Below, in pieces: positions 26,637 to 44,168 of a stretch of 64,000 nt of DNA (the stretch's first letter is position 1; each line of letters starts with the position of its first letter). A program made the translations under genes and the position numbers. A model generated the notes under the pieces. The model did no database searches, was not told the origin of the DNA, and worked only from the letters and a program-made list of their open reading frames with translations. This DNA is from an uncultured Acidobacteriota bacterium (GTDB taxonomy: Bacteria; Acidobacteriota; UBA6911), in the NCBI GenBank assembly GCA_964506795.1, contig CAZDMR010000001.1, positions 157,173 to 221,172 of the forward strand, given 5' to 3'.

Positions 26637-26657
26637 TCCGCCTTTGCGGCTTCATGA

Positions 26658-29311: not shown

Positions 29312-29333
29312 CCGCTCAAAGATTTAAGGATCC

Positions 29334-32261
29334 GTGATGCATCGAATCGTTGAAATAGCCCGCAAATCATTGGCTCCCGAACCGGTGCGGCAGGCGCTTG
29401 AGGGCGTGTCCGAATGCGTACCTTCCCGCCTGGATGATTATCCTGATTCCTTTCTCCTCGATCTGGGCCAGCTGCTGATTGTCTCGCCCCCAATGCTGGA
29501 TACGGTGAGGGCGCACCCGGAGTACTTGAGCTGGCTGCGAGACCGGTCGTCGGATGAGGGAGAAATGCGAAGCGGGCCCGCTGCTTTTCGACAGCGCTGC
29601 GAAGCCTGGAATGACGCGATCGAGGGGCAGTCGGATTTTTTTGACAGCCTGCGGGTTTTCAAGCGGCGGGAATACCTGCTTCTTTCTTTTATGGATGTAG
29701 CCAGCCGCCTTTCCTTTCAAGACATCGTGCACCGATTGTCCGAACTAGCGGACTGGGTCATTCAGACGGCGCTTCAGCACACTTGGAAAAAGCTTGCCGA
29801 AGAGGAATCCGCCCGGCCGGCGTCCTTTATACCGGAAAGCGGTTTTGCCGTGATCGCCATGGGCAAACTCGGCGGAATGGAGCTCAATTACAGCTCGGAC
29901 GTCGACCTGATTTTCTGCCGGCGCAATCCCGAAAACGCAAGGGAACAGGATTTTTTCCTAAAATTGGGTGAACGCCTTGTCGGGGTGCTCTCAAAGATCG
30001 GGCCCGAAGGATTTCTTTACCGGATCGACATGCGGCTTCGGCCCCACGGCGCCACGGGACCGCTGGCGCCGACCATCGACAGCCTTGTAAGCTACTATGA
30101 ATCTTGGGGGGAGCCGTGGGAACGGCAGGCGCTTATCAAAGCCCGCTTCATAGCGGGGAGTCCGGAAGTCGGCAGGCGTATTCAAGACTTCGTTGCCGCC
30201 TTCACTTTCTCGAGGCAGCTGGACGAATCCGCGCTCGAGGACGTCAAAAGGATCAAGCATCGCGCCGAGAAAGAGTTTTCTGTTGAACCGAAGATCCATC
30301 TGAAGCAGGGCCCCGGCGGCATTCGCGATATCGAGTTTTATGTCCAGTTTTCGCAGCTTACCATCGGATGGAAATACCCGGAGGTTTGCGAATCCAACAC
30401 TTTGAAGGCGATCGAAGCCCTGGCGCGGACGAAGGTTTTGCTCGAGGGGGAGGAAAGCGCGCTTTCTCTCGCTTATATATTTTTGAGGACTGTCGAGCAC
30501 CGGCTGCAGCTGAAAGCCTTGACTCCACAGGCTGTTCTGCCGGATTCTTCCGCGGAATTAAGTCTTCTGGCCTCCGCTCTGGGATACGGCAGCGAAGACG
30601 GCAATGCGCGGGATGATTTCTTGCGCGACCTTAATCGTCACCGCGTTCGGGTCCGGGGCATCCTCGAACGCGTGTATCTGGCTCCCGGCTACCTTCGGCT
30701 TCATGAGCGCGAAGAGGAGCTCGCGCAGCTTCTCAGCGACCGCGCGCCCAGGAGGCGAGTCCATGAACTATTGTCGCAATACGGTTTCCGCGATATCGAC
30801 AAAGCCTGGCAAAACATCCGGCTGCTCGCCCTGGGGCCGGAAGGACGATTGCTTCCGCCCGGGGAGCGGCGCTCATTCCTCGAATTTGCATTCCCCATGC
30901 TGGAGGTCTTGAAAGAGACTATTGATCCGGACAGGGCATTGCATAATCTGGAGGATTTCGCCACCGCCACCGGAAACCGAATCTCTTTTTTAAGGACTCT
31001 GGCTTCGAGGCGCCCGCATTTGTTGCGTCTCACCAATCTTCTCGCGCTCAGCAATCGATGCCGGCAGATTTTGTCGCGCCACCCTGAATACTTCGACAGC
31101 CTTGCGCGCGGAATATTTCTACATGAGGGGAGAGACGAAGACTCGATGCACGCCGAACTGCGGGAACGCATGGGGGTATCGCCGCGGGGAGAAGCGCGGG
31201 AGAACGTCTTGCGGAAATACCGGCAGCGGGAAACGGTCCGGATCGCCTATCGGGATCTGGCGGGGCTTGCGGATTCCCTGGAAATCAGCCGGGAATTGAG
31301 CGATCTTGCATCGGCATGCCTTCTCTCGGCCATGAATTGGACACGCACTCCATACACAGACCCCTCCGAAGATCGGAAAGATCCCATGTGTTTGATTGCG
31401 CTCGGGAAATTGGGTTCGCAGCAGATGCATTACGCCTCGGATTTGGACCTTATTTTCCTTTATGATGCCGAGCCCGAAGGAACTAGCCCGCAGGCACGAA
31501 GCTGCATTCAAAAGGAACAAGATGAAAGGGTTGAAAAAATCCTGGAGCTTCTGGCGGGCGTAACGCCCGAAGGAGTTGTGTATTCCGTCGATTTAAGGCT
31601 GCGCCCCGAAGGAGCCTCCGGTATACTGGCGCGCTCTTGGGAGAGTTTCCTGGAATACTCCAGAAAGCGCATGCAGCCCTGGGAGCGCATGGCCCTTGTG
31701 CGATCGAGAATGCTGACAAAAACTCGCGGCCTTCAGCAGCGATGGGATGCGCTGATTTCCGAAATTGTCTATGAATACGACTGGAATTCCGAGGCGGTAG
31801 AATCCATCCGCCATCTAAAAAGAAGAATCGAAACAGAGAAAAACCGGGAGACGCGGCACACGCTTGATTTTAAATACGGGAAAGGCGGAATCGCCGACCT
31901 GGAGTTTTTGGTTCAGTTTCTTCAAACACAACATGGTCGACGGCATCCAAACGTTCGTGCGGCGGGTTTGAATGACGCGCTTCTCGCTCTCCGCAACGAG
32001 GGCATCCTGGATGATTCCGAAGCGGATATCCTCCTTCGAGCCCACAAATTCGAGCGACTTGTCGAAAATCGATACCAGCTTATGGAAGAATGGACATCCC
32101 GGGAAGTGTCGCGCGAAGCCCCCGCGCTGGCTCGCCTTGCCGGAAGCATCGGTTACGGCAGACAAGAAGCTGCGGCCCGCAAATCCTTTATTTCCGATTG
32201 GGACAACACGGCGCGCTCCGTGCGCGCGTTGGTTGAAAAATACTTTTATTCCAAGCAATGA
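29334..32261 (+). CDS. glnE: Glutamine synthetase adenylyltransferase/deadenylase
   Basis: Two NTase halves: MGKLGGMELNYSSDVDL and LGKLGSQQMHYASDLDL; DMRLRP, WERQA, KQGPGGIRDIEF. Confidence 0.94.
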   Translation: MMHRIVEIARKSLAPEPVRQALEGVSECVPSRLDDYPDSFLLDLGQLLIVSPPMLDTVRAHPEYLSWLRDRSSDEGEMRSGPAAFRQRCEAWNDAIEGQSDFFDSLRVFKRREYLLLSFMDVASRLSFQDIVHRLSELADWVIQTALQHTWKKLAEEESARPASFIPESGFAVIAMGKLGGMELNYSSDVDLIFCRRNPENAREQDFFLKLGERLVGVLSKIGPEGFLYRIDMRLRPHGATGPLAPTIDSLVSYYESWGEPWERQALIKARFIAGSPEVGRRIQDFVAAFTFSRQLDESALEDVKRIKHRAEKEFSVEPKIHLKQGPGGIRDIEFYVQFSQLTIGWKYPEVCESNTLKAIEALARTKVLLEGEESALSLAYIFLRTVEHRLQLKALTPQAVLPDSSAELSLLASALGYGSEDGNARDDFLRDLNRHRVRVRGILERVYLAPGYLRLHEREEELAQLLSDRAPRRRVHELLSQYGFRDIDKAWQNIRLLALGPEGRLLPPGERRSFLEFAFPMLEVLKETIDPDRALHNLEDFATATGNRISFLRTLASRRPHLLRLTNLLALSNRCRQILSRHPEYFDSLARGIFLHEGRDEDSMHAELRERMGVSPRGEARENVLRKYRQRETVRIAYRDLAGLADSLEISRELSDLASACLLSAMNWTRTPYTDPSEDRKDPMCLIALGKLGSQQMHYASDLDLIFLYDAEPEGTSPQARSCIQKEQDERVEKILELLAGVTPEGVVYSVDLRLRPEGASGILARSWESFLEYSRKRMQPWERMALVRSRMLTKTRGLQQRWDALISEIVYEYDWNSEAVESIRHLKRRIETEKNRETRHTLDFKYGKGGIADLEFLVQFLQTQHGRRHPNVRAAGLNDALLALRNEGILDDSEADILLRAHKFERLVENRYQLMEEWTSREVSREAPALARLAGSIGYGRQEAAARKSFISDWDNTARSVRALVEKYFYSKQ

Positions 32262-32272
32262 GGTGGGTGTCC

Positions 32273-33604
32273 ATGACTTCGGCAAATCCTATTAACCAGG
32301 TTCTCGAAATCGCCAAGCAGGAAAGGGTGCGATTCCTTCGACTTCAGTTTACGGACATATTGGGATCGATCAAAAATGTGGAAATTCCGGAGCACCAGTT
32401 TGAACGCGCGCTTGAGGGCCAGGTGGTTTTTGACGGTTCGGCCATCGGCGGATTCCGACTGGAGGAAGCGGATATGATCCTGTGGCCTGATCCGGAGACC
32501 TTTAGGGTCTTCCCTTGGGAGGACCGGCGCGGGAAGGTCGCGCGCATGATCTGCGACGTTCGCCTCCCTGACGGATCGCCATTTTCCGGGTGTCCACGAA
32601 CCGCCCTTAAAAACATAGTTCGCCAAGCCGAAGAGATGGGATTTCAGCTGATTGTCGGGACGGAAGTGGAGTTTTTTCTGTTTTTAAGGGGGCCCGACGG
32701 CAAGGCAACCAACATCACTCACGACGTCGGCGGATACTTCGACCTTGCGCCGATCGACCGGGGCGAAGAGGCGCGCCGTGATATGGTCTCGACGCTGGAA
32801 CGCATGGGTTTTCAAGTTGAAGGCGCCCATCACGAAGTCGCCCCCGGCCAGCACGAAATAGATTTCAAACCCGTCGATGCGGTTACGGCGGGAGACAACC
32901 TCGTCACCTGCCGCTTCCTGGTGCGGAAAATCGCGATGGACAACGATCTTCACGCCACCTTCATGCCCAAGCCTTTCGTAGGCAAGAACGGTTCCGGCAT
33001 GCATCTCTACCAAGCTCTGTTCAAGGACGGGGTTAATGCATTTTCCGATCCGAAAGCAAAATATCGACTGACTCGGCAGGGCCTTCAATATATCGCCGGC
33101 ATGCTGGCGCACGCTCGCGGGATGACGGCTATCACCAATCCGTTGGTGAACTCTTATAAGCGCCTGGCTCCCAATTTTGAAGCGCCGACTCACGTCGCCT
33201 GGTCCGAGGTTAACCGCAATCCGCTGATTCGGCCTTCCAACCGCAGGGGCGAGGGAACCTTTTGCGAGTACCGTTTGCCGGATCCGTCCTGTAATCCATA
33301 TTTGTGCCTGGCCGCCGTACTGGCCGCCGGCTTGGAAGGGATTCGCAAACAAATGGACCCGGGGCCGCCGGTAAACAAGGATATTTACCGGATGAGCCAG
33401 AGAGAACGCAGCCGCCTGCGCGTCGAAAGTCTGCCGACCGATCTAAGCGAAGCGGTACGCGCTTTCCAGAAGGACAAATTCCTACAGAACGCTCTGGGTT
33501 CGCGCATCTCGGAGCACATCATTCAAGCCGAACGGACGGAGTGGCAGGAGTATATCGGCCAGGTGCATCCGTGGGAACTCGATCGTTATCTTGCGTCCTA
33601 CTAA
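32273..33604 (+). CDS. Second glutamine synthetase-family protein (GSI-alpha-like)
   Basis: LQFTDILG, FDGSAI, GTEVEFF, HHEVAPGQHEIDF, GSGMH, EYRLPDPSCNPY; about 443 aa; start 32258 or 32273. Confidence 0.9.
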   Translation: MTSANPINQVLEIAKQERVRFLRLQFTDILGSIKNVEIPEHQFERALEGQVVFDGSAIGGFRLEEADMILWPDPETFRVFPWEDRRGKVARMICDVRLPDGSPFSGCPRTALKNIVRQAEEMGFQLIVGTEVEFFLFLRGPDGKATNITHDVGGYFDLAPIDRGEEARRDMVSTLERMGFQVEGAHHEVAPGQHEIDFKPVDAVTAGDNLVTCRFLVRKIAMDNDLHATFMPKPFVGKNGSGMHLYQALFKDGVNAFSDPKAKYRLTRQGLQYIAGMLAHARGMTAITNPLVNSYKRLAPNFEAPTHVAWSEVNRNPLIRPSNRRGEGTFCEYRLPDPSCNPYLCLAAVLAAGLEGIRKQMDPGPPVNKDIYRMSQRERSRLRVESLPTDLSEAVRAFQKDKFLQNALGSRISEHIIQAERTEWQEYIGQVHPWELDRYLASY

Positions 33605-33607
33605 TTG

Positions 33608-34477
33608 CTATTCTGAATGAATCCCCCAGCTTTTAAACATATCCTTATAAAATTGCGGCTGTTCGAAATCCGGAAGCATGGACATGTACTGATCGCGATA
33701 AGAAAACATTCCTTTTTTCAGGCCTGTCATAAGCGCCGCCATCTTTACTTGAGGCACCGCGAATATCAACTCCTCTTCAAGCGTAAGCGCTCTCTGATAT
33801 TCCCCTGGATCGGGAAGCACGATGCAGTATTTCCCCGTTACAATGGGATCCACAACGCAATGCCCGCAGGACGGCAGCGACAAATGGGTGTCGACTTGCG
33901 ATCCGCCGCCGCTGTACATCATCGTGAGCAGCATCCCCCTGATTTGCGCGGGATTTGCATATATCAGGACGACATCCGGCATAAAAGAGGCGGTCTTTAA
34001 AGGAGCCGTAACCACGCCGATATATTTCCCGACATCAAAGCTTAGAAACGATTCTCCATACATCCCCATGGAAGCGGGCTTTTCCACCATTCCGTAGGCT
34101 ATGAGAGCCGTCGGACACCAGTGATCCTCCTTCAACATGGCTACGGTTTTCTTTTCCCGCCGCGACATGCCAAAGGCCTGGCACTGGGCTATATGATAGC
34201 CTCCGTCTTTTTTGGGCCGGAACGCTTCTTTAGGGATATCTTCTTCCTTCTCGAGCATTTTAACGGCCACAGGGGACGTTCTCATAATCAGCGATATTTC
34301 CAGCTCCTCTCCGTATTTATTGAACGCGCTCAACGCAGGCTCGGGATTTACCTGCTTCGGGAGAGGCTTTTTCGTGGTTTGAGCGGCGGAAATCGCCGCG
34401 CTTGATGTCCCCAAGGCTACCGCTCCGAGCCCCAGCTCCAGAGCTTCCCGTCTAGTGTATTTATTTTTCACGGACAC
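33608..34477 (-). CDS. DUF169-family protein with twin-arginine-like leader
   Basis: TRREALELGLGAVALG leader; CQAF, HWCP, PDVVLIYANPAQ motifs; GGAGGAG RBS. Confidence 0.7.
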   Translation of the reverse strand: MSVKNKYTRREALELGLGAVALGTSSAAISAAQTTKKPLPKQVNPEPALSAFNKYGEELEISLIMRTSPVAVKMLEKEEDIPKEAFRPKKDGGYHIAQCQAFGMSRREKKTVAMLKEDHWCPTALIAYGMVEKPASMGMYGESFLSFDVGKYIGVVTAPLKTASFMPDVVLIYANPAQIRGMLLTMMYSGGGSQVDTHLSLPSCGHCVVDPIVTGKYCIVLPDPGEYQRALTLEEELIFAVPQVKMAALMTGLKKGMFSYRDQYMSMLPDFEQPQFYKDMFKSWGIHSE

Positions 34478-34698: not shown

Positions 34699-36154
34699 TG
34701 GACACCCATTTTTTTCATGTTTTTTTTGGCTCATTTTACGAGTTCGCCATTATTACTATGAAAGGACCAAGCGATGGGTTTGCCGAGAAGCAAATATGTC
34801 CAGGAAGGGATAGAAGGAGTTTATCACTGTTTCAGCCGGTGCGTGCGCAGGGCTTTCCTCTGTGGATACGATACTGCCACAAACCGTGACTTTTCACACC
34901 GCAAGGCATGGCTGGTTGATAGGTTGCGTCATCTCGCCGGTATTTTCGCAATCGATGTTTGCGCTTACGCTGTCATGGATAATCATTATCATACCATCCT
35001 GCGCACCCGCCCCGACATTGTCGCCGATTGGTCGGATCAAGAAGTGGCAACGCGCTGGCTCGCTCTCTTCCCGCGGCATGGCGGCATTAAGGGGTCCGCT
35101 GGGCAGGCTGCCGAGAAGCAGATCCGCGCGTTGGCGTCCTGTCACGAACGTATCGCAGAGCTGCGCCGACGATTGTGCAGCCTGAGTTGGTTTATGGGAA
35201 GGCTCAATGAATATATCGCCCGCGCTGTAAACAAAGAGGAAAAAGTCAAAGGCCGCTTCTGGGAATCACGGTTTAAGTGCCAGGCGCTGCTTGACGACGC
35301 CGCTGTTGCGGCCTGCATGGTATATGTAGATTTGAATCCGATTCGCGCCCGTTTGTCCGGCAGTCTCGAAGAAAGTGACTTTACCAGCATCCAGCAGCGA
35401 ATCCGCGAATATTGCAGTCATACAACGCGCCCGAACTCCGCTTCCGACGATCACACTCAAAATATGCAAGCCAGCTTTCACCCTAGCAACAACTGTACGC
35501 CCGGAAATACTAATGAAAAGGCCGATTCTCTTCCCAAGCGTTTTTCTTCGATAAACGATTCCCCTGGCGGCGCAACTGGTTGCACATGGTGGTTGTGTCC
35601 CATTGCAACGGAAATTCATCGGCGCGGCATCCTGCCCATGACCGCAGCCGAATATTTCGATTTAGTGGACAAATCAGGAAAGCTCATTCGTTCAGATAAA
35701 CGCGGCGCGATCGATGCTACGCTAGCCCCGATTCTGCTGCGCATCGGCGCCAATCCAAAAGCGTGGCCTGAAACCATCTCACTTTTTGGGCGCAAATTCC
35801 GCCTTGCCGCCGGATTGATTTCAAATCTGCGCAATTTTGCCCATCAGCTCGGCCAACGGTGGGTAACGGGCGTCCCAACGGCCCGAACTGCATTTGCCGC
35901 ATCGCCATTGCAATCGGCCTGACTCATTGCAGCCCCCGCACACCCTCTCTGGAAACACGGTGGAAACCACTGATTTCCCCAATTGCTGCAAGCGTCTTTC
36001 GATTTCATGCCTACCGGTTGTTGCGTTGCAACTTCAATTCCTCACTGCTCGCTTTGGAAGCCTATCCTGCTTGCTTTAATCCCTCGGCCCAATGAAGCCC
36101 CAAACTGGAATTACTGGTCTCGAATCAAGAAAAATAATGATTAATGGATGTCCA
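34699..36154 (+). mobile_element. RAYT-like element 2 bounded by TGGACACCCAT ... ATGGATGTCCA
   Basis: Imperfect inverted 11-mers (10/11) at 34699 and 36144; leader homologous to element 1. Confidence 0.6.
34774..35922 (+). CDS. IS200-like Y1 (HUH) transposase, paralog of 3881-5029, 382 aa
   Basis: YHCFSRCVRRAFL, NHYH, YVDLNPIRA, EYFDLVDKSG. Confidence 0.9.
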   Translation: MGLPRSKYVQEGIEGVYHCFSRCVRRAFLCGYDTATNRDFSHRKAWLVDRLRHLAGIFAIDVCAYAVMDNHYHTILRTRPDIVADWSDQEVATRWLALFPRHGGIKGSAGQAAEKQIRALASCHERIAELRRRLCSLSWFMGRLNEYIARAVNKEEKVKGRFWESRFKCQALLDDAAVAACMVYVDLNPIRARLSGSLEESDFTSIQQRIREYCSHTTRPNSASDDHTQNMQASFHPSNNCTPGNTNEKADSLPKRFSSINDSPGGATGCTWWLCPIATEIHRRGILPMTAAEYFDLVDKSGKLIRSDKRGAIDATLAPILLRIGANPKAWPETISLFGRKFRLAAGLISNLRNFAHQLGQRWVTGVPTARTAFAASPLQSA

Positions 36155-36214
36155 TGAATTAAATTATGCTAAAAAAGATGCGTTTAAAAATTGAACTTAT
36201 TTTCAAAGGGCAAA

Positions 36215-37552
36215 ATGATGACTGTAAGAAAAGCGACAAAAGCGGCGAGAAGTAAAAGTACAGCTGTATCTGAGAAAGCTTACAATCCGTTCGAAATAGC
36301 TCAACAACAGTTCAACAGAATCGCCGAACTGCTTGGTTTGGATGAACCGACTCGTGATTTCATGCGCAATCCCGTGAGGGAATATCATTTCAACATCCCA
36401 GTCCGGATGGATCACGGCGGGATGCGTATTTTCCGCGGCTTCAGGGTGCAGCACAATGATGCGCGCGGACCTTGCAAGGGGGGCGTTCGTTTTCATCCGC
36501 TCGAGACGATCGACACGATCCGCGCGCTTGCCATGTGGATGACTTGGAAATGCGCCGTCGTCGACATACCTCTCGGCGGTAGCAAGGGCGGGATAATCTG
36601 CGACCCGCACAACCTCAGCGCACACGAAATCGAACAGCTTTGCCGGGGCTGGGTCCGGCAAATCTCCCGGGATGTGGGACCATTCATGGACGTGCCCGCT
36701 CCGGATGTGATGACCAATGCCCAAGACATGCTGTGGATGCTGGACGAATTCGAAAAGATCCACGGGGCCAAGTACCCGGGCTTCATCACGGGAAAACCGG
36801 TCAGCGTCGGAGGTTCTCTTGGCCGCAAAGAAGCGACCGGCTACATGGTGATCCACACTGTTCGCGAAGCTCTCAACGAAATGAATCTGAAACCCGAAAA
36901 CACAACGGCCAGCATTCAAGGCTTCGGCAATGTTGCTCAATACTCCCTTGATCTATACCACAAGATTGGAGGAACAGTGATCAGCATTTCAAGCTGGGAT
37001 CCCGCCGACAATAAGACATTCTGCTGCAGGAAAAAGACCGGGATCATATTTGACGAGATCAACTCAATCACCGATCCATGGGGCACAATTAATAGAAGGA
37101 AAGCCCAGGATCTCGGATACGAAATCCTGCCTGGCGAAGCGTGGCTGGAACAAGACGTTGACATTCTCATTCCTGCCGCCGTGGAAAATCAGATCACCGC
37201 AGAAACCGCGCCAAAAATAAATCCCAGGGTCAAGCTCGTGGCGGAAGGAGCCAACGGCCCGACCACGCCCGAGGGAGATCTGATACTGGATCAACGTGGG
37301 ATCTCTCTCATCCCCGATATTCTCTGCAATGCCGGAGGGGTAACATGCAGCTATTTCGAGCAAGTCCAGGGAAATATGAATTACTACTGGGAAGAGAAAG
37401 AGGTGCTCGACAAGCTGAGTTCAAAAATGTCTTCGGCGTTTTACGCAGTCAGGGAAGTGTCCAAGCGCCGCAAGCTTCCCATGAGAGATTCGGCTTATGT
37501 GCTCGCCGTAGATCGTGTTGCGCGCGCCTGCAAGGACCGGGGGTGGTGCTAA
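36215..37552 (+). CDS. gdhA: Glutamate dehydrogenase (Glu/Leu/Phe/Val family)
   Basis: RGPCKGGVRF, GGSKGG, DVPAPDV, GFGNV, EGANGPTT, NAGGVTCSYFE. Confidence 0.92.
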   Translation: MMTVRKATKAARSKSTAVSEKAYNPFEIAQQQFNRIAELLGLDEPTRDFMRNPVREYHFNIPVRMDHGGMRIFRGFRVQHNDARGPCKGGVRFHPLETIDTIRALAMWMTWKCAVVDIPLGGSKGGIICDPHNLSAHEIEQLCRGWVRQISRDVGPFMDVPAPDVMTNAQDMLWMLDEFEKIHGAKYPGFITGKPVSVGGSLGRKEATGYMVIHTVREALNEMNLKPENTTASIQGFGNVAQYSLDLYHKIGGTVISISSWDPADNKTFCCRKKTGIIFDEINSITDPWGTINRRKAQDLGYEILPGEAWLEQDVDILIPAAVENQITAETAPKINPRVKLVAEGANGPTTPEGDLILDQRGISLIPDILCNAGGVTCSYFEQVQGNMNYYWEEKEVLDKLSSKMSSAFYAVREVSKRRKLPMRDSAYVLAVDRVARACKDRGWC

Positions 37553-37734
37553 AGGAAAGCCGCAGAGAATCCTAGCCGCGGAGCGATTCTTCTGAGAAAG
37601 GGACGATTGGTCTTTGCCGGGAGTTGATCTCTGAAGGCAACTCACCGACCCCCTGGAATTGGGAAATCTTGGTTGCGGCCATAAACCGCGCCCGGTGAAA
37701 CAGAATAGCATCAGCACCTTACTGTTTTGGTCTC

Positions 37735-40700
37735 ATGAAAGAGAAACCGATAGACAGGCTGCTCATCGATCTGAAGGAAAGGGCCCGGGAACTCAACTGT
37801 CTATATGAAGTTGAAGAGATTCTGAGCGATTCCAACATCGCCCTGGAGGAGCTTTTCAGCCGGATTGTAAAAACGATTCCCGCCGGATGGCAATATCCCG
37901 ACGTATGCGAAGCGCGGATCGTTTACGGGAACAAGGAGTTTCAAACCAGGGGGTTCCGGGAGACCGAGTGGATCCAGCATTCGGATATTTTCGTCCAAGA
38001 CCAAACGGTAGGGCAGATCAGCGTCTGCTACACCCAAAAACGCCCGATTGCAGACGAAGGGCCGTTCCTGAAGGAAGAACGAAAGCTGATCAATACCATC
38101 GCGGACCGGTTGAAGCATCGGATTCTCCATTACAATCTTAAGTCCGTGTTCGAAAGGCAGAAACTCCATGGTGAATCCTCTGAAGAGTCCGCCGTTATTC
38201 TGGAACTGCTGAACCGAACCGATCCGCTTCTGCTCACGCGGATTTCGAGAAAGATGCTGAACCACCTCACATGGGCCGGATTTGAGGAAGCCCATCGGAT
38301 TCTGGAGCGCATCAGTCCGCCCCCAAGCCCGAATGGCAAGGATGAAGAGCAGGACGAAAACCAACCTTCGCGAATTTCGACAACTCAAGATCTTCTCTCC
38401 GCCACCAATGAGATCTTTAAGATGGCAAGGGAGCATCTGCCGGAGCCGGAAATATTATCCTTCATCCAAAAATGGATTCAGGAAGACCGTTCGGGATTTT
38501 TGATAAAAACCCTCGAAAATCCCAATTCCTCGCTGGTCGACATTGCCGCGGCAATAAAACGGTTTCGCCATCTTACCCCTCAGGGGATCGAGCTTTCACC
38601 GTCGCGGGCGCGAGCCTTTCAAGTTTCGTTGGTCCAGCGCCTCCTAAGCGACGATCCCCAGTTTCTTCAAGTCGCCACGAAATCGATCAACCTGAGCGAT
38701 TTCAGCGATTTGCTCGAGCATACGATTTACCCGGCGGAAAGCCATGGAAAACTCGGCGGAAAGGGTGCGGGCCTGTTTATCGCCATGCAAATCCTCAAAA
38801 GATACTCCGGCCAGCATAAGATCCTCCAAGGCATTCGAATCCCAAAAACATGGCATATCACATCGGACGGCCTCCTCAGCTTCATCAACTACAACGATCT
38901 GGAAGAGATCATTGAACACAAATACAAAGATATCGGCCAAGTCCGTCAGGAATACCCGTCGATTGTCCAGGTTTTCAAGAGCGCTTCCTTTCCGCCGGAG
39001 ATTCTCAGCGGGCTTTCCGTTGCGCTTGACGATTTCGCGGAAATACCCCTCATCGTGCGCAGTTCAAGCCTTCTCGAGGACAGCCGCGGAACCTCTTTTG
39101 CCGGAAAATACAAAAGCCTTTTTATCGCCAACCAGGGAAGCAAACGCCAACGGCTGGCCGCCCTCACAGACGCGATTTCCGAGGTCTATGCCTCTACTTT
39201 CGGCCCAGACCCGATCGGCTACAGGAAGGAGCGCCAACTGATCGATTTCCATGAAGGAATGGCGATCCTGATAGAGGAAGTGGTCGGAACCAGAGTAGGA
39301 AGATATTATATGCCTGCATTTGCAGGGGTAGGTTTCAGCCGTAACGAATTCCAGTGGTCTCGGCGCATACGGCGGGAAGACGGCCTTCTCCGCTTGGTCC
39401 CGGGTTTGGGGACGCGCGCCGTCGACAGGCTGTCAAATGACTACCCGGTTCTCGTCTCCCCGGGCCAGCCTTCTCTCCGCGTGAACGTCATGGTCGAAGA
39501 AAAGGTGCGCTACTCTCCCAAACGGATCGATGCGATCAACCTGGAAACCGGCTCATTCGAAACAATTGAGATCGAGGACCTTCTTAAGGAATACGGCAAC
39601 GACTACCCAATGATCAGTCAAGTGGTCTCTATCCTGGAGCATGACAGGCTGGTACAGCCGTGGGCTTCCGGGATCGACAAAGATAAAGACGTTGCGGTAA
39701 TCACATTCGAAGGCCTTCTTGGACAAACGCCTTTCATTGAGCAGGTTTCGACCATACTCAGAGTGCTTCAATCTGAACGCGGCATGCCGATTGACATCGA
39801 ATTTGCCCATGATGGGAAGGATTTCTATCTGCTTCAATGCCGGCCCCAGAGCTACGGCGCCCTTTATAAACCCGCGCCCATGCCGAGAGATGTCCCCGAT
39901 GAACAGATTCTGTTTTCCGCCAACCGATACGTAACCAACGGAACCGTCGCGGGCATCACGCACATAGTTTACGTCGATCCACAGAATTACTCGGACTTGC
40001 CGCAAAGGGCGGATCTGCTAGCGGTGGGACGCGCAGTCGCCAAGCTCAACCAGCTTTTGCCGAAGCGCCGCTTCATACTCATGGGACCGGGACGCTGGGG
40101 GAGTCGCGGCGATATCAGGTTGGGAGTCAGCGTGTCTTATTCCGATATCAACAACACGGCAATGTTGGTTGAGATCGCGCAGAAACACAAAGACTATACG
40201 CCGGAACTCTCCTTCGGCACGCACTTCTTTCAAGACCTCGTCGAATCATCCATCCGCTATCTTCCTCTTTATCCCAATGAGCGCGGGACCCTTTTTAACG
40301 AGTCCTTCTTCACAGATTCCCGCAATTGGCTGCCCGATCTGCTGCCCCAGTTTGCCTATCTCGCGGATACGATTCGAGTCATCGACGTGCCGAATACCGC
40401 GCCCGGAATGGTTTTCAACGTGTTTATGAACGGCGAGTCCGACGAAGCCATGGGCGTCCTGTCTCCGCGATCGGCGGAACCCGCGGAAGTGCTTCCCAGG
40501 AGCGAAAGAATCGGCGAGCCCGACTCTGCATCCGAAGATCATTGGCGCTGGCGCCTTGACAGTGTGGAGGAGATAGCGGAGCAGATGGATCCGGAAAAGT
40601 TCGGAGTCAAGGCGATGTACCTATTCGGGAGCACCAAGAATGCAACCGCGGGCCCGGAGAGCGACATCGACCTGTTAATTCATTTCGACGGCACCAAGAG

Positions 40701-40917
40701 CCAGAAAAAAGAACTGCTGACCTGGCTGGAAGGTTGGAGCCTTTGCTTGAGCCACAGAAACTATTTAAAAACCGGCCATAAAACGGCGGGACTAATCAAC
40801 ATCCACCTCGTAACCGATCAAGATATCCGCAACCGCACCAGCTACGCAGTTAAAATAGGCGCGGTTTCAGATCCTGCCCGCCCCATTCCGCTCGCCAAGA
40901 AGAAAAGCGATTCATAA
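37735..40917 (+). CDS. GAF-like / PEP-pyruvate-binding (PPDK_N ATP-grasp) / His-motif / pol-beta nucleotidyltransferase fusion, function unknown
   Basis: ELNCLY..PFLKEER N-terminal sensor-type domain; GKLGGKG, VRSSSLLED, SFAGKY, DIEFA..LLQCRP; SFGTHFFQD; FGS-x10-DID. Confidence 0.85.
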   Translation: MKEKPIDRLLIDLKERARELNCLYEVEEILSDSNIALEELFSRIVKTIPAGWQYPDVCEARIVYGNKEFQTRGFRETEWIQHSDIFVQDQTVGQISVCYTQKRPIADEGPFLKEERKLINTIADRLKHRILHYNLKSVFERQKLHGESSEESAVILELLNRTDPLLLTRISRKMLNHLTWAGFEEAHRILERISPPPSPNGKDEEQDENQPSRISTTQDLLSATNEIFKMAREHLPEPEILSFIQKWIQEDRSGFLIKTLENPNSSLVDIAAAIKRFRHLTPQGIELSPSRARAFQVSLVQRLLSDDPQFLQVATKSINLSDFSDLLEHTIYPAESHGKLGGKGAGLFIAMQILKRYSGQHKILQGIRIPKTWHITSDGLLSFINYNDLEEIIEHKYKDIGQVRQEYPSIVQVFKSASFPPEILSGLSVALDDFAEIPLIVRSSSLLEDSRGTSFAGKYKSLFIANQGSKRQRLAALTDAISEVYASTFGPDPIGYRKERQLIDFHEGMAILIEEVVGTRVGRYYMPAFAGVGFSRNEFQWSRRIRREDGLLRLVPGLGTRAVDRLSNDYPVLVSPGQPSLRVNVMVEEKVRYSPKRIDAINLETGSFETIEIEDLLKEYGNDYPMISQVVSILEHDRLVQPWASGIDKDKDVAVITFEGLLGQTPFIEQVSTILRVLQSERGMPIDIEFAHDGKDFYLLQCRPQSYGALYKPAPMPRDVPDEQILFSANRYVTNGTVAGITHIVYVDPQNYSDLPQRADLLAVGRAVAKLNQLLPKRRFILMGPGRWGSRGDIRLGVSVSYSDINNTAMLVEIAQKHKDYTPELSFGTHFFQDLVESSIRYLPLYPNERGTLFNESFFTDSRNWLPDLLPQFAYLADTIRVIDVPNTAPGMVFNVFMNGESDEAMGVLSPRSAEPAEVLPRSERIGEPDSASEDHWRWRLDSVEEIAEQMDPEKFGVKAMYLFGSTKNATAGPESDIDLLIHFDGTKSQKKELLTWLEGWSLCLSHRNYLKTGHKTAGLINIHLVTDQDIRNRTSYAVKIGAVSDPARPIPLAKKKSDS

Positions 40918-41148
40918 AGACTTCCGGCGCGTGGTAATTTTCTACGTTCGATCGCCCACCGAGCATGGGTTCAAAAAGATTGAAAAGGCGCTCGCCCACT
41001 GTGGACGGCAACCCATGGAATCAACCCTGGAAAATACACTTATTGCCGCAAGATGATCGGGCGCGGTTGAAAACACGCCGCCGATCTACAGGGAATTCGA
41101 AAGCTTGGCCGCCGGCACCGGCCGCGTTACGATAAATACGAGGACTAT

Positions 41149-42009
41149 ATGGCCGTTTGCTTTTTTGTTACGGATCTTCACGGGAGTCATCCGCGCTGTC
41201 AAAAGCTATTTGACGCGATTGAAAGAGAAATCCCGGACGCAGTGTTTCTGGGAGGAGATCTTTTTCCCTCCGGCCTGGGCGCGGCCCTGGCGCTTAAGAA
41301 CTACGAAGATTTTCTGGACGAAGTTTTTGCCGCGGGATTTTCCAAAATTAAAAGGAAAATGGGGCCGGCCTATCCCTCTGTCTTCCTGATTCTCGGCAAC
41401 GACGATGTGAAAATTGAAGAAGCGCGGCTGAAAGAGTTCGAGGCACAATCTATCTGGACTTACGTACACAACAGACGCGTTTCATGGAAGGATTATTCGA
41501 TTTACGGCTACGCCTGTGTGCCTCCAACTCCGTTCATGCTGAAAGATTGGGAACGGTACGACGTCTCGGCGTATTTAGATCCGCTCTCCGTCGCTCCGGA
41601 AGACGGCTGGTTTTCCGTGTCCGTTTCAAAACGGAGCCTCCGGCGCGAGACCATTCACTACGATCTTTATAAGCTCGCAGCCGATGACGACTTGTCGCGC
41701 GCGATTTTTTTGTTTCATACGCCCCCGTACAATACCGGCCTGGATAGGGCCGCGCTGGATGGAAAGAAGGTGGACCACGTAAACCTGGACGTTCATGTCG
41801 GGAGCATCGCGGTTAGACGGTTCATCGAGTCCAGACAGCCGCTGGTGACACTACACGGCCATGTTCATGAGTCCGCGCGACTTACGGGGGTGTGGAAGGA
41901 GCGAATCGGCAAGACCGTGGCTATTTCCGCAGCCCACGACGGCCCCAACCTAGCCCTCGTCAGGTTCGACCCCAACGAACCCCAAAGCGCAACAAGGGAG
42001 CTGCTTTAA
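41149..42009 (+). CDS. Calcineurin-like metallophosphoesterase
   Basis: TDLHG, GGD, GNDD, FHTPP, HGHVHE. Confidence 0.9.
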   Translation: MAVCFFVTDLHGSHPRCQKLFDAIEREIPDAVFLGGDLFPSGLGAALALKNYEDFLDEVFAAGFSKIKRKMGPAYPSVFLILGNDDVKIEEARLKEFEAQSIWTYVHNRRVSWKDYSIYGYACVPPTPFMLKDWERYDVSAYLDPLSVAPEDGWFSVSVSKRSLRRETIHYDLYKLAADDDLSRAIFLFHTPPYNTGLDRAALDGKKVDHVNLDVHVGSIAVRRFIESRQPLVTLHGHVHESARLTGVWKERIGKTVAISAAHDGPNLALVRFDPNEPQSATRELL

Positions 42010-42065
42010 CCCAGATTACTCATAAAGCTGCATCGAAAATAATGAAACCAAAGGCATAATCCGAA

Positions 42066-44168
42066 TTAAGATTTTGCTTCTCTCCCCTTTGCTCGATCCA
42101 GCACACTCAGGGCGCGCTCAACAACATTTTCGATTGTGTAGCCGAACTTTTCGAACACTATCTCAGAGGGCGCCGATGCTCCGAAGCGGTCCAGGCCCAT
42201 GACGTCTCCCTCATCGCCGACATACTTGTGCCATCCCTGGCAAACGCCCGCCTCGACCGCCAAGCGGGCGCGGATGGAGGGAGGCAGAACCGAATCCCTG
42301 TACTGCCGGGGCTGGGCGTCAAACAGCTCCCAGCTCGGCATTGAAACCGCGCGTGACGAAATGCCTTTTTCCAACAGCCTCCGCTGGGCCGCGACGATCA
42401 GAGCAACTTCCGATCCGCTGGCGATCAAAATCAATTGAAGATCCCCGCCCGGAGTATCCGCCAGAACGTAGGCTCCCTGCGTCAGTCCGGCGGCCGACGC
42501 ATAGCGCGCCCGGTCGAGTGTGGGGACGCTCTGCCGGCTCAAGATAAGCGCCACGGGAACTCGGCGGTTTTCCACGGCAAAGCGCCAGGCCGTCACAGTT
42601 TCGTTGGCATCGGCCGGGCGGATTGCGATAAGGCCCGGGATGGCGCGAAGGGCAGCCAGATGTTCGACCGGCTGATGTGTGGGTCCGTCTTCGCCGACTC
42701 CGATGCTGTCATGTGTAAAGACATAGATTACTCCCAGCTCCATCAATGCCGCTAAACGGATAGGCGCGCGCATATAGTCGGAAAAAACAAAAAATGTAGC
42801 ACAATAGGGAATGAGTCCGCCGTGGGCGGCCATTCCGTTGGCTATGGCTCCCATTGCGTGCTCCCGGACGCCGAAATGCAGATTCCGCCCATGGTATCCC
42901 CATCCGCCCCCCACCATTCCCTGCACATCGGCGGGCTTGGAATCAGGGTTTTGAAAATCGCCCGCATTCTTGAGAGCGCTCTTTGTCGAAGGATTCAAGT
43001 CGGCCGAACCTCCAATCAACGCAGCAAGCTTGGGACTGATTGCTTCCATCGCTTTGGCCGAAGCAGCCCGCGTTGCCATTCCTTTTTCATCGGCCGCAAA
43101 TGAGGGCAAATCAGCAGCCCAGCCGTCCGGAAGCTCGCCCCGCATCAATTGCAGAAATTCCCGCGCCGCATCCGGAAATTCGGCGGAGTAGGCCGCAACC
43201 TGCTCATTCCATTCCGCTTCCCATTTCCTGCCCGCCCGTATCGCTTGGCGGAAATGGTTTAGCGCCTCATCGGGGACGTAAAAAGGGGGATCCGCCGGCC
43301 AGCCCAGGTTCTTCTTGGTTAACAGCACCTCTTCGACCCCGAGCGGCGCGCCGTGTGCCTCATGGGAATCCTGCTTGTTTGGGGAGCCGAAACCGATGTG
43401 AGTCCGGACCATGATAATCGATGGGTGTCCACTTTCGTCTTTTGCAGCCTGTATTGCTGCGGCAAGAGAGTCCACGTCGTTCCCATCCTGAACGGCGATC
43501 GCATGCCATCCAAGGGCCTCAAAGCGCCCCATGCGGTCCTCGCTGAAGGAAAGGTCCGTTGCCCCGGCAAGGGAGATCCGATTATCGTCATAGAGACATA
43601 TTAACTTGCCGAGCTTCAGGTGCCCCGCCATCGAGGCAGCCTCATAAGCCACCCCTTCCATCAGATCACCGTCCCCTGCCAGAATATAGGTATGATGATT
43701 CACCATCACACGACCCGGACGGTTGTAGCGCGCGGCCTGATAGGATTCCGCAATCGCCATCCCCACCGCGTTCGCGAATCCCTGGCCGAGCGGGCCGGTC
43801 GTTACTTCAACCCCGGGAACCAGGCGGCATTCCGGATGCCCGGGCGTCCGGCTTCCCCATTGACGGAACCGCCGTATTTCATCCAGGGAAAGGTCGTAGC
43901 CGGTCAGATACAACAGGCTGTACAAAAGCATGGATCCATGCCCTGCCGAAAGCACAAACCGGTCGCGATCCCACCACTCAGGGTTGGCGGGATTGTGCTT
44001 CAAAAACCGCGTCCAAAGAACATAGGCCATGGGAGCGGCTCCCAAAGGCAGTCCGGGATGGCCGCTCCTGGCCTGCTGAATCGCATCCACGGAAAGAAAC
44101 CGCAGGGCGTTGATGCAAATCCGGTCTAGAGGCGAAGTGGAGGACAATCCCGAAGAATCCTTGTTCAT
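42066..44168 (-). CDS. tkt: Transketolase
   Basis: [43 protein letters not shown]; start 44168 or 44180. Confidence 0.96.

What the first reader, a model, noticed from the sequence alone, without database searches (positions are those of the whole stretch)
37735..40917. Four-module enzyme: sensor domain, barrel-less PPDK ATP-grasp, non-canonical His domain, minimal NTase
Seen: residues about 1-130 resemble the ELNCLY..PFLKEER GAF-like module of anaerobe kinases. The ATP-grasp motifs run from G338 (GKLGGKG) to LLQCRP. The canonical swivel motif GGxTSH and the PEP/pyruvate TIM barrel are absent; instead there is GPGRWGS..PELSFGTH830FFQD. The C-terminus has G965-S966..D977-x-D979 with both metal-binding Asp intact. 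Established: rifampin phosphotransferase uses ATP-grasp plus a phospho-His domain without the barrel to phosphorylate a non-pyruvate substrate. Inference: His830 is the phosphocarrier and the substrate is not pyruvate; the fused NTase adds a second chemistry.
Basis: partly seen in the sequence, partly recalled or inferred. Interest (0 to 1): 0.68.

Follow-up and report, generated by a model that had tools for sequence, protein, structure and literature searches.

The report
Sensor-linked dikinase-like enzyme beside glutamate dehydrogenase
This is a real 1060-residue protein from a large, uncharacterised bacterial family that joins a sensor module, a pyruvate-phosphate-dikinase-type ATP-binding domain, a new histidine-bearing domain and a small nucleotidyltransferase, and its gene sits directly after a glutamate dehydrogenase gene in many phyla, so it probably controls that enzyme.

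Summary
Pfam finds a PPDK_N ATP-grasp (339-706, E 2.5e-56) and a minimal nucleotidyltransferase (946-991, E 1.5e-8). It finds no swivel His domain (PF00391) and no PEP/pyruvate barrel (PF02896).

Residues 718-914 fold with high confidence (pLDDT 91.7). They match nothing in the PDB, BFVD, Pfam, or E. coli PpsA and PtsI. This is a new domain, not a diverged swivel domain.

His830 and the ATP-grasp residues K343, R442, E689 and Q701 are kept in all 118 family genes of 500 residues or more from 80 species; R703 is K in one. The nucleotidyltransferase is optional in the family and less conserved. Here its third catalytic carboxylate position is Asn (N1022).

A glutamate dehydrogenase gene lies near the family gene, usually directly upstream, in 58 of 80 species loci across more than ten phyla. 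This also holds for relatives without the sensor and nucleotidyltransferase. A ~585-residue paralogue (ATP-grasp plus new domain) is often inserted or fused, and other paralogues carry a response-regulator receiver.

Best reading: a signal-controlled His-autophosphorylating regulator of glutamate dehydrogenase. The mechanism is inferred. The closest functional precedent is VadK of M. tuberculosis.

The parts
37735..40917 (+). Whole gene, 1060 aa
   Evidence: ORF list and translation. Full-length homologues at 54-79% identity.
37735..38169 (+). N-terminal small sensor module (aa 1-145), GAF-like, with ELNCLY and GPFLKEER motifs
   Evidence: AF2 shows two helices, four strands and a long helix. 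Weak Foldseek GAF matches. The same module is repeated in tandem in P0225 and occurs in protein kinase P0218. No Pfam model matches it.
38182..38739 (+). All-helical domain (aa 150-335) preceding the ATP-grasp, kept in the ~765-aa relatives
   Evidence: AF2 secondary structure. Match ranges of the representatives. No Pfam hit.
38740..39852 (+). PPDK_N-type ATP-grasp (aa 336-706). K343 lies in GGKG, R442 in VRSS, S461, and E689/Q701/R703 in DIEF...LLQCRP.
   Evidence: Pfam PF01326 E 2.5e-56. Foldseek to rifampin phosphotransferase E 6e-14. The profile alignment puts R442, S461 and E689 on RPH R117, T136 and E297 (roles from PMC4844700). These residues are invariant.
39853..39900 (+). Poorly conserved linker (aa 707-722)
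   Evidence: The consensus is mostly 'x' in A1. No regular secondary structure.
39901..40476 (+). New alpha/beta domain (aa 723-914). Motifs: GPGRWGS (40084-40104), E813, and S-F-G-T-H830-F-F-Q-D (40210-40236; His codon 40222-40224).
   Evidence: AF2 pLDDT 91.7, pTM 0.90. No structural or sequence relative found. Conservation data.
40477..40536 (+). Disordered linker (aa 915-934)
   Evidence: pLDDT below 50. Variable in the alignment.
40537..40902 (+). Minimal (MNT-type) nucleotidyltransferase (aa 935-1056). G965-S966, D977, D979 are present; the third carboxylate position is N1022 (40798-40800); H1024 is invariant.
   Evidence: Pfam PF01909 and PF18765. NCBIfam MntA-like hit, 26 bits, below its cut-off. 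Foldseek 8xeh_E and 2rff. Column counts.
36191..37552 (+). Glutamate dehydrogenase gene directly upstream on the same strand, with a 182-bp gap. The likely true start is the ATG at 36215.
   Evidence: Pfam ELFV_dehydrog_N plus ELFV_dehydrog. NCBIfam GdhA_Arch E 2e-134. A homologous GDH is present in 58 of 80 related loci.
41149..42009 (+). Calcineurin-like metallophosphoesterase downstream
   Evidence: Pfam Metallophos E 3.6e-12. A homologue is present in 31 of 80 related loci, directly downstream and convergent in about 21.

Best explanation
The gene encodes a signal-regulated, barrel-less phosphotransferase of the pyruvate-phosphate-dikinase ATP-grasp lineage. It works together with the glutamate dehydrogenase (GDH) encoded just upstream.

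Shown here:
- The protein has four modules: a small GAF-like sensor, a helical domain plus a catalytically intact PPDK_N ATP-grasp, a new ~190-residue alpha/beta domain, and an optional minimal nucleotidyltransferase.
- The conserved functional unit across the family is ATP-grasp plus new domain. That pair also exists alone (~585-590 aa).
- The family gene follows a GDH gene across many phyla.
- Inputs are swapped between paralogues: a GAF-like module in some, a response-regulator receiver in others.

Inferred:
- The ATP-grasp binds ATP and, as in PPDK, PEP synthase, rifampin phosphotransferase and VadK, transfers a phosphoryl (or pyrophosphoryl) group to a histidine on a tethered domain. Here that would be His830, at the N-terminus of a helix next to the Gly-rich GPGRWGS loop.
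- The phosphorylated domain then either passes the phosphate to GDH or changes how the protein binds GDH. This would tune glutamate/2-oxoglutarate flux in response to the signal sensed at the N-terminus.
- The C-terminal nucleotidyltransferase, where catalytically intact, may add a second, GlnE-like modification (AMPylation). The neighbouring metallophosphoesterase may reverse a modification.
- In this particular protein the nucleotidyltransferase may be weakened, because N1022 replaces the third carboxylate.
For: Architecture.

ATP-grasp competence:
- K343, R442, S461, E689, Q701 and R703 are invariant in 67 homologues.
- The pentad K343/R442/E689/Q701/R703 is intact in 117 of 118 family genes of at least 500 aa from 80 species; the exception has K for R703.
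- R442, S461 and E689 align to RPH R117, T136 and E297. The roles of these residues and of K22 were tested by mutagenesis in RPH (PMC4844700).

His830:
- Present in 66/67, 67/69 and 118/118 sequences.
- It is one of only nine invariant residues in 36 copies that are 34-44% identical.
- It sits at a helix N-terminus in a low-confidence (mobile) loop of the full-length model.
- The domain is tethered by a variable linker.

Unit of function:
- 585-aa paralogues consist of ATP-grasp plus this domain only.
- They are often translationally coupled to the long form or fused to it (~1630 aa).

GDH link:
- A GDH homologue is present in 58 of 80 species loci, mostly directly upstream and co-directional.
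- Duplicated GDH-X pairs occur within single loci (L042, L070).
- The same adjacency holds for distant members without sensor or nucleotidyltransferase: P0138 with overlapping stop/start, and P0179. It also holds for a receiver-domain member in L090.

Signalling character:
- The N-terminal module is shared with a Ser/Thr kinase.
- Receiver-domain paralogues occur in the same loci.
- One member sits between a STAS gene and an HDOD gene.

Local context in the window: PII, GS, GlnD, GlnE, GS, then GDH and this gene.

Precedent: VadK, a barrel-less PPDK derivative, autophosphorylates on His and regulates nearby methylcitrate-cycle enzymes (PMC13400623).
Against: - No biochemical datum exists for any member. 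I found no paper on the family.
- The His-bearing domain has no detectable relationship to the swivel phosphohistidine domain. The analogy therefore rests on position and conservation only. A conserved His could equally be a metal ligand or a general base.
- Protein phosphorylation by a PPDK_N-type enzyme has not been demonstrated. For VadK only autophosphorylation and binding are shown.
- About a quarter of loci with enough flanking sequence lack an adjacent GDH. Other members have unrelated neighbours: LGT, UPF0102, an Asn synthase region.
- The metallophosphoesterase is mostly convergent, so it is not co-transcribed.
- No transcript data are available.
Confidence: 0.4

Rival explanations
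1. It is a small-molecule dikinase. The ATP-grasp plus the new domain would phosphorylate a metabolite connected to the GDH reaction (a glutamate- or 2-oxoglutarate-derived compound or a cofactor), and the new domain would be the acceptor-binding site. The sensor and receiver domains would then simply regulate a metabolic enzyme.
For: All characterised PPDK_N enzymes other than VadK act on small or polymeric non-protein acceptors: pyruvate, rifampin, hydroxyphenylethanones (Foldseek hits 5hv3, 9goj, 1kbl; PMC4844700; PMC12167813 listed). The new domain has a Gly-rich loop after a beta-strand, as in nucleotide- or phosphate-binding Rossmann-like folds. GDH adjacency fits a shared pathway.
Against: No other pathway enzyme is conserved in the neighbourhood: only GDH, paralogues and a phosphoesterase recur. 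Input domains are swapped between paralogues, and a STAS/HDOD context occurs, which is typical of signalling proteins. Duplicated GDH-X pairs within one locus suggest cognate protein pairs rather than one pathway.
Confidence: 0.2
2. His830 is not a phosphocarrier. The new domain would be a catalytic or ligand-binding domain of another kind, for example a phosphoesterase-like or nucleotide-binding site, in which His830, R787, E813 and D834 bind a metal or a ligand. The ATP-grasp would act on its own or serve as an ATP/AMP energy sensor.
For: No similarity to any phosphohistidine domain. The weak structural neighbours are Rossmann-like hydrolases and nucleotide-binding proteins, plus several calcineurin-like or Mre11 phosphoesterases, none significant. 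About 710-aa relatives have sensor plus ATP-grasp without this domain.
Against: The ATP-grasp phosphoryl-transfer residues and His830 are conserved together in 117 of 118 genes. Every studied PPDK_N enzyme needs a His carrier (PMC4844700, PMC13400623). The ~710-aa forms lacking the domain often also vary at Q701 and R703, as expected if the ATP site and this domain work together.
Confidence: 0.2
3. The nucleotidyltransferase is the main effector. It would AMPylate or uridylylate GDH as GlnE does glutamine synthetase, and the ATP-grasp part would be regulatory.
For: G-S and D-x-D are conserved. The domain is of the MntA type, which is named a protein adenylyltransferase in NCBIfam. GlnD and GlnE are encoded nearby in the window. 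A metallophosphoesterase follows only the forms that carry the nucleotidyltransferase: 22 of 54 against 0 of 11.
Against: The domain is missing from many GDH-linked relatives. Its catalytic positions vary, whereas the ATP-grasp and His830 do not. This protein has Asn at the third carboxylate position. The association is confounded by gene order within clusters.
Confidence: 0.1
4. It is a bifunctional drug- or xenobiotic-inactivating enzyme: a rifampin-phosphotransferase-like kinase fused to an aminoglycoside- or lincosamide-type nucleotidyltransferase.
For: The best structural match of the ATP-grasp is rifampin phosphotransferase. There are weak NCBIfam hits to RPH and to ANT families.
Against: The NCBIfam RPH score is 38.6 bits against a cut-off of 999, and it covers only 361-519. 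There is no rifampin-binding domain and no swivel domain. The ANT hits have E above 0.03. The conserved GDH and nitrogen context, and the sensor domains, do not fit a resistance gene.
Confidence: 0.03
5. It is a toxin-antitoxin or anti-phage defence component built around an MNT nucleotidyltransferase.
For: PADLOC candidate family PDC-S09 (minimal nucleotidyltransferases) matches residues 954-990 at E 3e-8. Foldseek matches a HEPN-MNT complex, 8xeh_E.
Against: The match covers the 40-residue core motif only. No HEPN partner is annotated among the neighbours. The context is housekeeping nitrogen and carbon metabolism and is conserved across phyla.
Confidence: 0.02

Closest known systems
VadK (Rv1127c) of Mycobacterium tuberculosis, a PPDK-derived regulatory histidine autokinase (PMC13400623)
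   Same: Both are barrel-less derivatives of the PPDK ATP-grasp lineage. The paper reports that VadK binds methylcitrate-cycle enzymes and tunes their flux; this gene lies next to a central-metabolism enzyme gene (GDH). Both have a conserved His in the domain that follows the ATP-grasp (for VadK; here).
   Different: VadK keeps the canonical PPDK phosphohistidine domain; its His422 was located by overlay on PPDK. The domain here has no detectable relation to that one. VadK is ~490 aa with no sensor and no nucleotidyltransferase. Its partner enzymes are methylcitrate synthase and dehydratase, not GDH. Autophosphorylation is shown for VadK and untested here.
Rifampin phosphotransferase (RPH-Lm; PDB 5hv1, 5fbs; PMC4844700)
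   Same: It is the best structural match for the ATP-grasp (E 6e-14). The equivalents of R117, T136, E297 and K22 are conserved. The His-bearing domain is C-terminal to the ATP-grasp rather than central. There is no PEP/pyruvate barrel.
   Different: There is no rifampin-binding domain and no swivel His domain. The NCBIfam RPH model scores 38.6 bits against a cut-off of 999. This protein has extra sensor, helical and nucleotidyltransferase modules, and a different genomic context.
Pyruvate phosphate dikinase and PEP synthase
   Same: The PPDK_N ATP-grasp (PF01326) with its phosphate- and Mg-binding residues.
   Different: This protein lacks PF00391 (the GGxTSH swivel) and PF02896 (the TIM barrel). 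NCBIfam PEP synthase models score 54 bits or less against cut-offs of about 600-1060.
GlnE and GlnD, the nucleotidyltransferase regulators of nitrogen assimilation
   Same: Conceptually similar: a large sensor-coupled enzyme with a Pol-beta-type nucleotidyltransferase, encoded next to the nitrogen-assimilation enzyme it might control. Genuine GlnD and GlnE genes lie 5-11 kb upstream in this window.
   Different: There are no GlnE (PF03710) or GlnD_UR_UTase (PF08335) domains. The nucleotidyltransferase here is the minimal MNT type and is optional in the family. The conserved core is an ATP-grasp, not a nucleotidyltransferase.
MntA-type minimal nucleotidyltransferases (type VII toxin-antitoxin)
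   Same: The G-S...D-x-D core and the overall size of the C-terminal module.
   Different: It scores below the NCBIfam cut-off (26 bits against 60). There is no HEPN partner. It is fused to a 930-residue enzyme. The third carboxylate position is Asn here.

Membership tests
PPDK_N ATP-grasp superfamily (PF01326) | Domain match above the curated threshold | tested here: met
   191.8 bits against a cut-off of 27, residues 339-706. Foldseek to RPH and PPDK ATP-grasp at E 1e-14 to 1e-6.
PPDK_N ATP-grasp superfamily (PF01326) | Phosphate- and Mg-binding residues: the equivalents of RPH/PPDK K22 and of RPH R117, T136 and E297 | tested here: met
   K343 in GGKG, R442, S461 and E689 are invariant. The alignment to RPH is and the residue roles come from PMC4844700. 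The K343-K22 equivalence is by motif position only.
Canonical PEP-utilising dikinases (PPDK, PEP synthase) | Central swivel phosphohistidine domain (PF00391, GGxTSH) | tested here: not met
   No Pfam hit at E<=1, or at E<=10 in 36 copies of the region. hhalign against PpsA and PtsI gives probability below 1%. Foldseek finds no swivel domain.
Canonical PEP-utilising dikinases (PPDK, PEP synthase) | PEP/pyruvate-binding TIM barrel (PF02896) | tested here: not met
   No hit. The sequence after residue 706 is accounted for by the new domain and the nucleotidyltransferase.
Rifampin phosphotransferase | Full-length match to the RPH equivalog model, including the rifampin-binding domain | tested here: not met
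   NF041857 scores 38.6 bits against a cut-off of 999, and only residues 361-519 match.
Rifampin phosphotransferase | C-terminal swivel His domain carrying the catalytic His | tested here: not met
   A conserved His lies C-terminal to the ATP-grasp, but it is in an unrelated fold.
VadK-like barrel-less PPDK-derived His kinases | ATP- and Mg-dependent autophosphorylation on the His of the domain following the ATP-grasp | not testable with these tools
   This needs a biochemical assay. Here only the conservation of His830 is shown.
VadK-like barrel-less PPDK-derived His kinases | Canonical PPDK phosphohistidine domain retained | tested here: not met
Minimal nucleotidyltransferase (PF01909 / Pol-beta superfamily) | hG[GS] motif and the D-x-D metal ligands | tested here: met
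   G965, S966 and D977 are in 67/67 sequences and D979 in 66/67. Pfam scores 35.4 bits against a cut-off of 21.
Minimal nucleotidyltransferase (PF01909 / Pol-beta superfamily) | Third catalytic carboxylate on the following beta-strand | tested here: not met
   Position 1022 is Asn here. In homologues it is D in 50, S in 9 and N in 8 of 67. Assigning this position as the canonical third carboxylate rests on strand order in the model and on my knowledge of the Pfam consensus.
MntA-HepT type VII toxin-antitoxin | Adjacent HEPN toxin partner and a score above the equivalog cut-off | tested here: not met
   NF047752 scores 26 bits against a cut-off of 60. The neighbours are GDH and a metallophosphoesterase.
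GAF domain | Match to GAF sequence models or a clear structural match | tested here: inconclusive
   No Pfam GAF hit in 35 members. Foldseek GAF matches are at E 0.03-0.1. The weak Pfam GAF hit of P0225 (E 1.2e-7) falls within its first copy of the module. The model has four strands rather than the usual six.
GlnE / GlnD regulators | GlnE (PF03710) or GlnD_UR_UTase (PF08335) domains | tested here: not met
   Absent from this protein. They are present in the true GlnD and GlnE genes upstream.

The most novel reading that the evidence does not exclude
The ATP-grasp plus new His domain is the catalytic core of a previously unrecognised class of signal-controlled protein-modifying enzymes. These enzymes would covalently switch glutamate dehydrogenase on or off by His-relayed phosphorylation, with AMPylation added by the fused nucleotidyltransferase and reversal by the neighbouring metallophosphoesterase. 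This would be a GDH counterpart of the GlnE/glutamine synthetase cycle, using a new kind of phosphohistidine carrier domain and operating in many anaerobic phyla.
Probability: 0.2. Interest if true: 0.85.

Novelty: new variant of a known kind. Interest (0 to 1): 0.62.

Why it matters
Glutamate dehydrogenase sits at the junction of carbon and nitrogen metabolism. In bacteria it has no widely conserved dedicated covalent regulator comparable to GlnE for glutamine synthetase (this is my own knowledge).

The family is large: more than 1000 clusters at 50% identity, and at least 587 species. It is tied to GDH genes in Acidobacteriota, Bacteroidota, Ignavibacteria, Calditrichia, Zixibacteria, Eisenbacteria, Planctomycetota, Bacillota and other phyla. 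It carries interchangeable sensor inputs. That makes it a strong candidate for such a regulator in sediment and gut-type anaerobes that ferment amino acids.

It would also extend the PPDK-type dikinase mechanism to a new carrier domain. Alongside VadK, it would be a second, independent case of this ATP-grasp lineage being recruited for regulation rather than catalysis of a metabolic step.

In databases these proteins are currently named 'pyruvate, water dikinase' or 'phosphoenolpyruvate synthase'. The absence of the barrel and of the swivel domain shows those names are wrong.

Tried and rejected
Searches that led nowhere:
- The window protein is not on record in the contig index, so I took context from 80 species loci instead.
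- The new domain gave nothing in a profile search of PDB sequences, Foldseek against PDB and BFVD, Pfam at E<=10 on 36 copies, or hhalign against E. coli PpsA and PtsI. The several weak BFVD hits to Mre11 and calcineurin-like phosphoesterases (E 0.02-0.6, TM below 0.3) are too weak to use.
- By eye, FILMGPGRWGS...AMLVE...SFGTHFF looked like ILV..TSP.D...GILT..GGxTSHAA of swivel domains. None of the tests supported this, so I dropped it.
- A domain-only homology search returned only fragments of the same family, with no new architectures.
- Four literature searches found no paper on the family. The last of these surfaced VadK.

A lead from memory that I could not verify: Baggio and Morrison 1996 reported that Bacteroides thetaiotaomicron GdhA activity depends on trans-acting gene(s) in about 3 kb downstream of gdhA. 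The paper is not held. The only gene identity I could recover near my remembered locus tag, BT1971, is a catalase. I do not use this as evidence.

Other negatives:
- No RNA-seq runs hold the locus, so co-transcription of GDH and this gene is untested.
- The promoter and terminator scan of 35900-42100 gave fewer sites than the shuffled controls and nothing between GDH and the gene.
- Neighbour clusters c3 and c5 in the locus comparison are spurious antisense ORFs of high-GC genomes. The hisG/D/C/B block downstream is lineage-specific synteny.
- My first regular-expression classification of 'long' forms was too narrow. The first hmmalign numbering was off by one and was corrected.

Full report
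**The observation**

The window carries an ATG-initiated ORF at 37735-40917 on the + strand, encoding 1060 residues. I re-translated the codons to confirm this:
- GKLGGKG starts at G338, with K343.
- LLQCRP is at 699-704.
- GPGRWGS is at 784-790.
- SFGTH830FFQD is at 826-834.
- G965-S966 and D977-I-D979 are present.

Pfam recognises a PPDK_N ATP-grasp at 339-706 (E 2.5e-56) and a minimal nucleotidyltransferase at 946-991 (E 1.5e-8). It recognises nothing else. There is no PEP-utilizer swivel domain and no PEP/pyruvate barrel. NCBIfam models for PEP synthase, rifampin phosphotransferase and PigC/RedH match only part of the ATP-grasp, at scores 10- to 50-fold below their cut-offs.

The protein is not an oddity of this contig. 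A search of 5.8 billion proteins returned more than 5000 hits, and nearly all of the best 120 are full-length, most of about 1050-1070 aa, at 54-79% identity. An exhaustive search of 50%-identity representatives found 12025 relatives, 1093 of them below E 1e-30. A scan of one genome per species found at least 587 species with a relative. The run index places the sequence in salt-marsh metagenomes.

**Anatomy**

AlphaFold2 with 67 sequences gave mean pLDDT 79.5. The model divides as follows:
- A small alpha/beta module, residues 1-145.
- A helical domain, residues 150-335.
- The ATP-grasp, residues 336-706.
- A variable linker.
- An alpha/beta domain, about residues 723-914.
- A disordered linker, residues 915-934.
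- The nucleotidyltransferase, residues 935-1056.

Foldseek of the whole model against the PDB is dominated by the ATP-grasp of rifampin phosphotransferase (E 6e-14), HpeI and PPDK. It gives weak matches of the N-terminus to GAF domains (E 0.03-0.1) and of the C-terminus to minimal nucleotidyltransferases (8xeh_E, 2rff).

A profile of the family aligns R442, S461 and E689 with R117, T136 and E297 of rifampin phosphotransferase. In that enzyme K22, R117 and T136 were shown by mutagenesis to be needed for the first phosphotransfer, and E297 coordinates Mg (PMC4844700). K343, R442, S461, E689, Q701 and R703 are invariant in 67 homologues. The ATP-grasp therefore looks catalytically competent.

**The domain carrying His830**

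I modelled residues 718-914 alone with 50 sequences and obtained pLDDT 91.7 and pTM 0.90. Foldseek against 350,542 PDB chains gave no match below E 0.086. The best TM-score was 0.37, to generic Rossmann-like proteins. No PPDK, PEP synthase, enzyme I or rifampin phosphotransferase His domain appears in the top 50.

BFVD also gave nothing significant. Pfam at E<=10 on 36 copies that are only 34-44% identical to the window's copy gave no PF00391 and no recurrent family. A profile of those copies found nothing in PDB sequences. hhalign against E. coli PpsA and PtsI gave probabilities below 1%.

So this region is not a 'non-canonical swivel domain' in any sense I could detect. It is an unmodelled domain. 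Its conservation pattern is nonetheless that of an active site. In the 36 divergent copies, only P785, R787, G789, E813, S826, G828, H830, F831 and L835 are invariant. His830 counts are:
- 66 of 67 close homologues.
- 67 of 69 representatives that cover both domains.
- All 118 family genes of at least 500 aa found in 80 species loci.

In the same 118 genes K343, R442, E689 and Q701 are always present, and R703 is K once. His830 begins a helix. Together with the GPGRWGS loop, it lies in the only low-confidence (mobile) stretches of the domain in the full-length model.

**The nucleotidyltransferase**

G965, S966 and D977 are invariant and D979 is present in 66 of 67. The position that normally supplies the third carboxylate, on strand 1021-1026, is Asn in this protein. 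Among close homologues it is D in 50, S in 9 and N in 8.

Across the species loci about 75% of the genes carrying the domain have the full G-S-D-D-D-H set, and the rest vary. Many relatives lack the module altogether. Representatives of about 920, 765 and 590 aa end cleanly after the His domain. The nucleotidyltransferase is therefore an accessory under weaker constraint than the ATP-grasp and His830.

**Architectural variation**

The constant unit is ATP-grasp plus the new domain (~585-590 aa). To this unit are added the helical domain (~765 aa), the GAF-like module (~920 aa) and the nucleotidyltransferase (~1060 aa).

A further paralogue class of about 1000 aa replaces the GAF-like module with a response-regulator receiver and a DUF5752-like segment. 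The N-terminal module of the window protein recurs four times in tandem in P0225, which has a weak Pfam GAF hit within its first copy. It also recurs in a Ser/Thr protein kinase. These are hallmarks of a signalling output domain with exchangeable inputs.

**Genomic context**

I called ORFs in the 80 species loci and the window, and clustered them by BLASTP. Apart from the family itself, two neighbour families recur.

A ~428-aa glutamate dehydrogenase is present in 58 of 80 loci, normally directly upstream and on the same strand. In a subset classified by position, 29 had GDH directly upstream of the gene block, 7 had GDH nearby, 7 had no GDH, and 7 were too close to a contig end.

A ~287-aa calcineurin-like phosphoesterase is present in 31 loci. 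In most of those it lies directly downstream, usually convergent.

In about 33 loci a ~585-aa paralogue lies between GDH and the long gene, often with overlapping stop and start codons. In the ~1630-aa proteins the two are fused in the same order. Some loci contain two successive GDH-X pairs (L042, L070).

The link extends to distant members. P0138 (767 aa, with no sensor and no nucleotidyltransferase) starts on the stop codon of a 428-aa GDH gene. P0179 (766 aa) follows a GDH gene. In L090 a receiver-domain member follows a GDH gene. Other members have different neighbours: a STAS protein upstream and an HDOD protein downstream, UPF0102, LGT, and an asparagine synthase region.

In the window itself the neighbourhood is a nitrogen-control block: PII (24800-25162), glutamine synthetase (25191-26633), GlnD (26729-29308), GlnE (29334-32261), a second glutamine synthetase (32258-33604), then DUF169, a RAYT-like transposase gene, GDH (36191-37552), this gene and the phosphoesterase.

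**Interpretation**

What is shown: a competent-looking PPDK-type ATP site; a tethered new domain with an invariant His-centred motif set that is conserved together with the ATP site; exchangeable sensor inputs; and a conserved gene pairing with GDH across many phyla.

What I infer: the enzyme autophosphorylates His830 from ATP. Every studied member of this ATP-grasp lineage phosphorylates a His on a mobile domain (PMC4844700, PMC13400623). The phosphorylated state would then act on GDH, either by transfer or by binding, under control of the N-terminal sensor. I give this 0.4.

The closest functional precedent is VadK of M. tuberculosis. It is a barrel-less PPDK derivative that autophosphorylates His422, binds methylcitrate synthase and dehydratase, and tunes flux through that cycle. 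VadK keeps the canonical His domain, which this family does not.

The rivals are:
- A small-molecule dikinase in a GDH-linked pathway (0.2).
- A new domain whose His is not a phosphocarrier (0.2).
- A nucleotidyltransferase-centred, GlnE-like mechanism (0.1).
- A drug-modifying enzyme (0.03).
- A toxin-antitoxin or defence element (0.02).

**Verdict**

The barrel-less ATP-grasp, the conserved His and the non-pyruvate substrate hold up. The swivel-domain ancestry does not.

I class the protein as a new variant of a known kind. It is a PPDK_N-lineage phosphotransferase with a new partner domain and a new, conserved association with glutamate dehydrogenase, and I found no literature on it. The database names 'pyruvate, water dikinase' and 'phosphoenolpyruvate synthase' given to its relatives are not justified.

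Noticed in passing
window 24800-33604: A compact nitrogen-control block on the + strand: PII (24800-25162), glutamine synthetase (25191-26633), GlnD-like uridylyltransferase with HD and ACT (26729-29308), GlnE (29334-32261), and a second glutamine synthetase (32258-33604) whose start overlaps the GlnE stop by 4 nt.
   Followed up: partly
window 34774-35922 (+) and 3884-5029 (-): Two paralogous 382-aa ORFs, 64% identical, with a weak match to REP-associated tyrosine transposases (NF047646, E 9.5e-11, below its cut-off). One sits between the glutamine synthetase/DUF169 genes and the GDH gene.
   Followed up: partly
L001:6230-7996, L032:6154-8004 and about 31 other loci: A ~585-aa paralogue (ATP-grasp plus the new His domain only, with all catalytic positions intact) lies between GDH and the long gene. 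It often has overlapping stop and start codons, and it is fused to the long form in ~1630-aa proteins (P0108, P0112, P0113, P0117, P0122). This suggests a heteromeric pair. The window lacks this paralogue.
   Followed up: partly
L042:1799-4804, L058:654-3677, L070:8788-11766, L080:1800-4781, L090: A third paralogue class of about 1000 aa has a response-regulator receiver (Pfam hit in two of the five checked) and a DUF5752-like segment (three of the five) in front of the ATP-grasp and His domain. It lies in the same loci, sometimes with its own upstream GDH gene.
   Followed up: partly
representatives P0143, P0154, P0158, P0160, P0163, P0167, P0177, P0178, P0192, P0230 and others: Relatives of about 700-715 aa end right after the ATP-grasp, with no His domain. 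Many vary at the Q701/R703 positions (for example KREKQ, KRERH, KRTRS). They may be regulatory pseudo-enzymes.
   Followed up: no
contigs carrying P0171, including L087:49-405: One 771-aa family member is preceded by a 118-aa STAS (anti-sigma-antagonist) gene with overlapping start, and in longer contigs it is followed by an HDOD gene. This is a partner-switching-like context in which the upstream protein is a classic phospho-acceptor.
   Followed up: no
P0225 (481 aa) and P0218 (1279 aa): The ~130-aa N-terminal module (ELxCLY...GPFLxEE) occurs as four tandem copies making up a whole protein. It also occurs in several copies in a Ser/Thr protein kinase. No Pfam model describes it.
   Followed up: partly
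related loci, gene downstream of the long form; window 41149-42009: The calcineurin-like phosphoesterase follows only those family genes that carry the nucleotidyltransferase: 22 of 54 against 0 of 11, Fisher p 0.011. This is confounded by gene order within clusters and by phylogeny.
   Followed up: partly
window 56805-61036: A PDZ-GAF-PAS histidine kinase (56805-59657) is followed immediately by an NtrC-type sigma-54 response regulator (59663-61036).
   Followed up: no
window 33608-34477 (-): A DUF169 (COG2043) protein is encoded on the opposite strand between the second glutamine synthetase gene and the transposase-like ORF.
   Followed up: no
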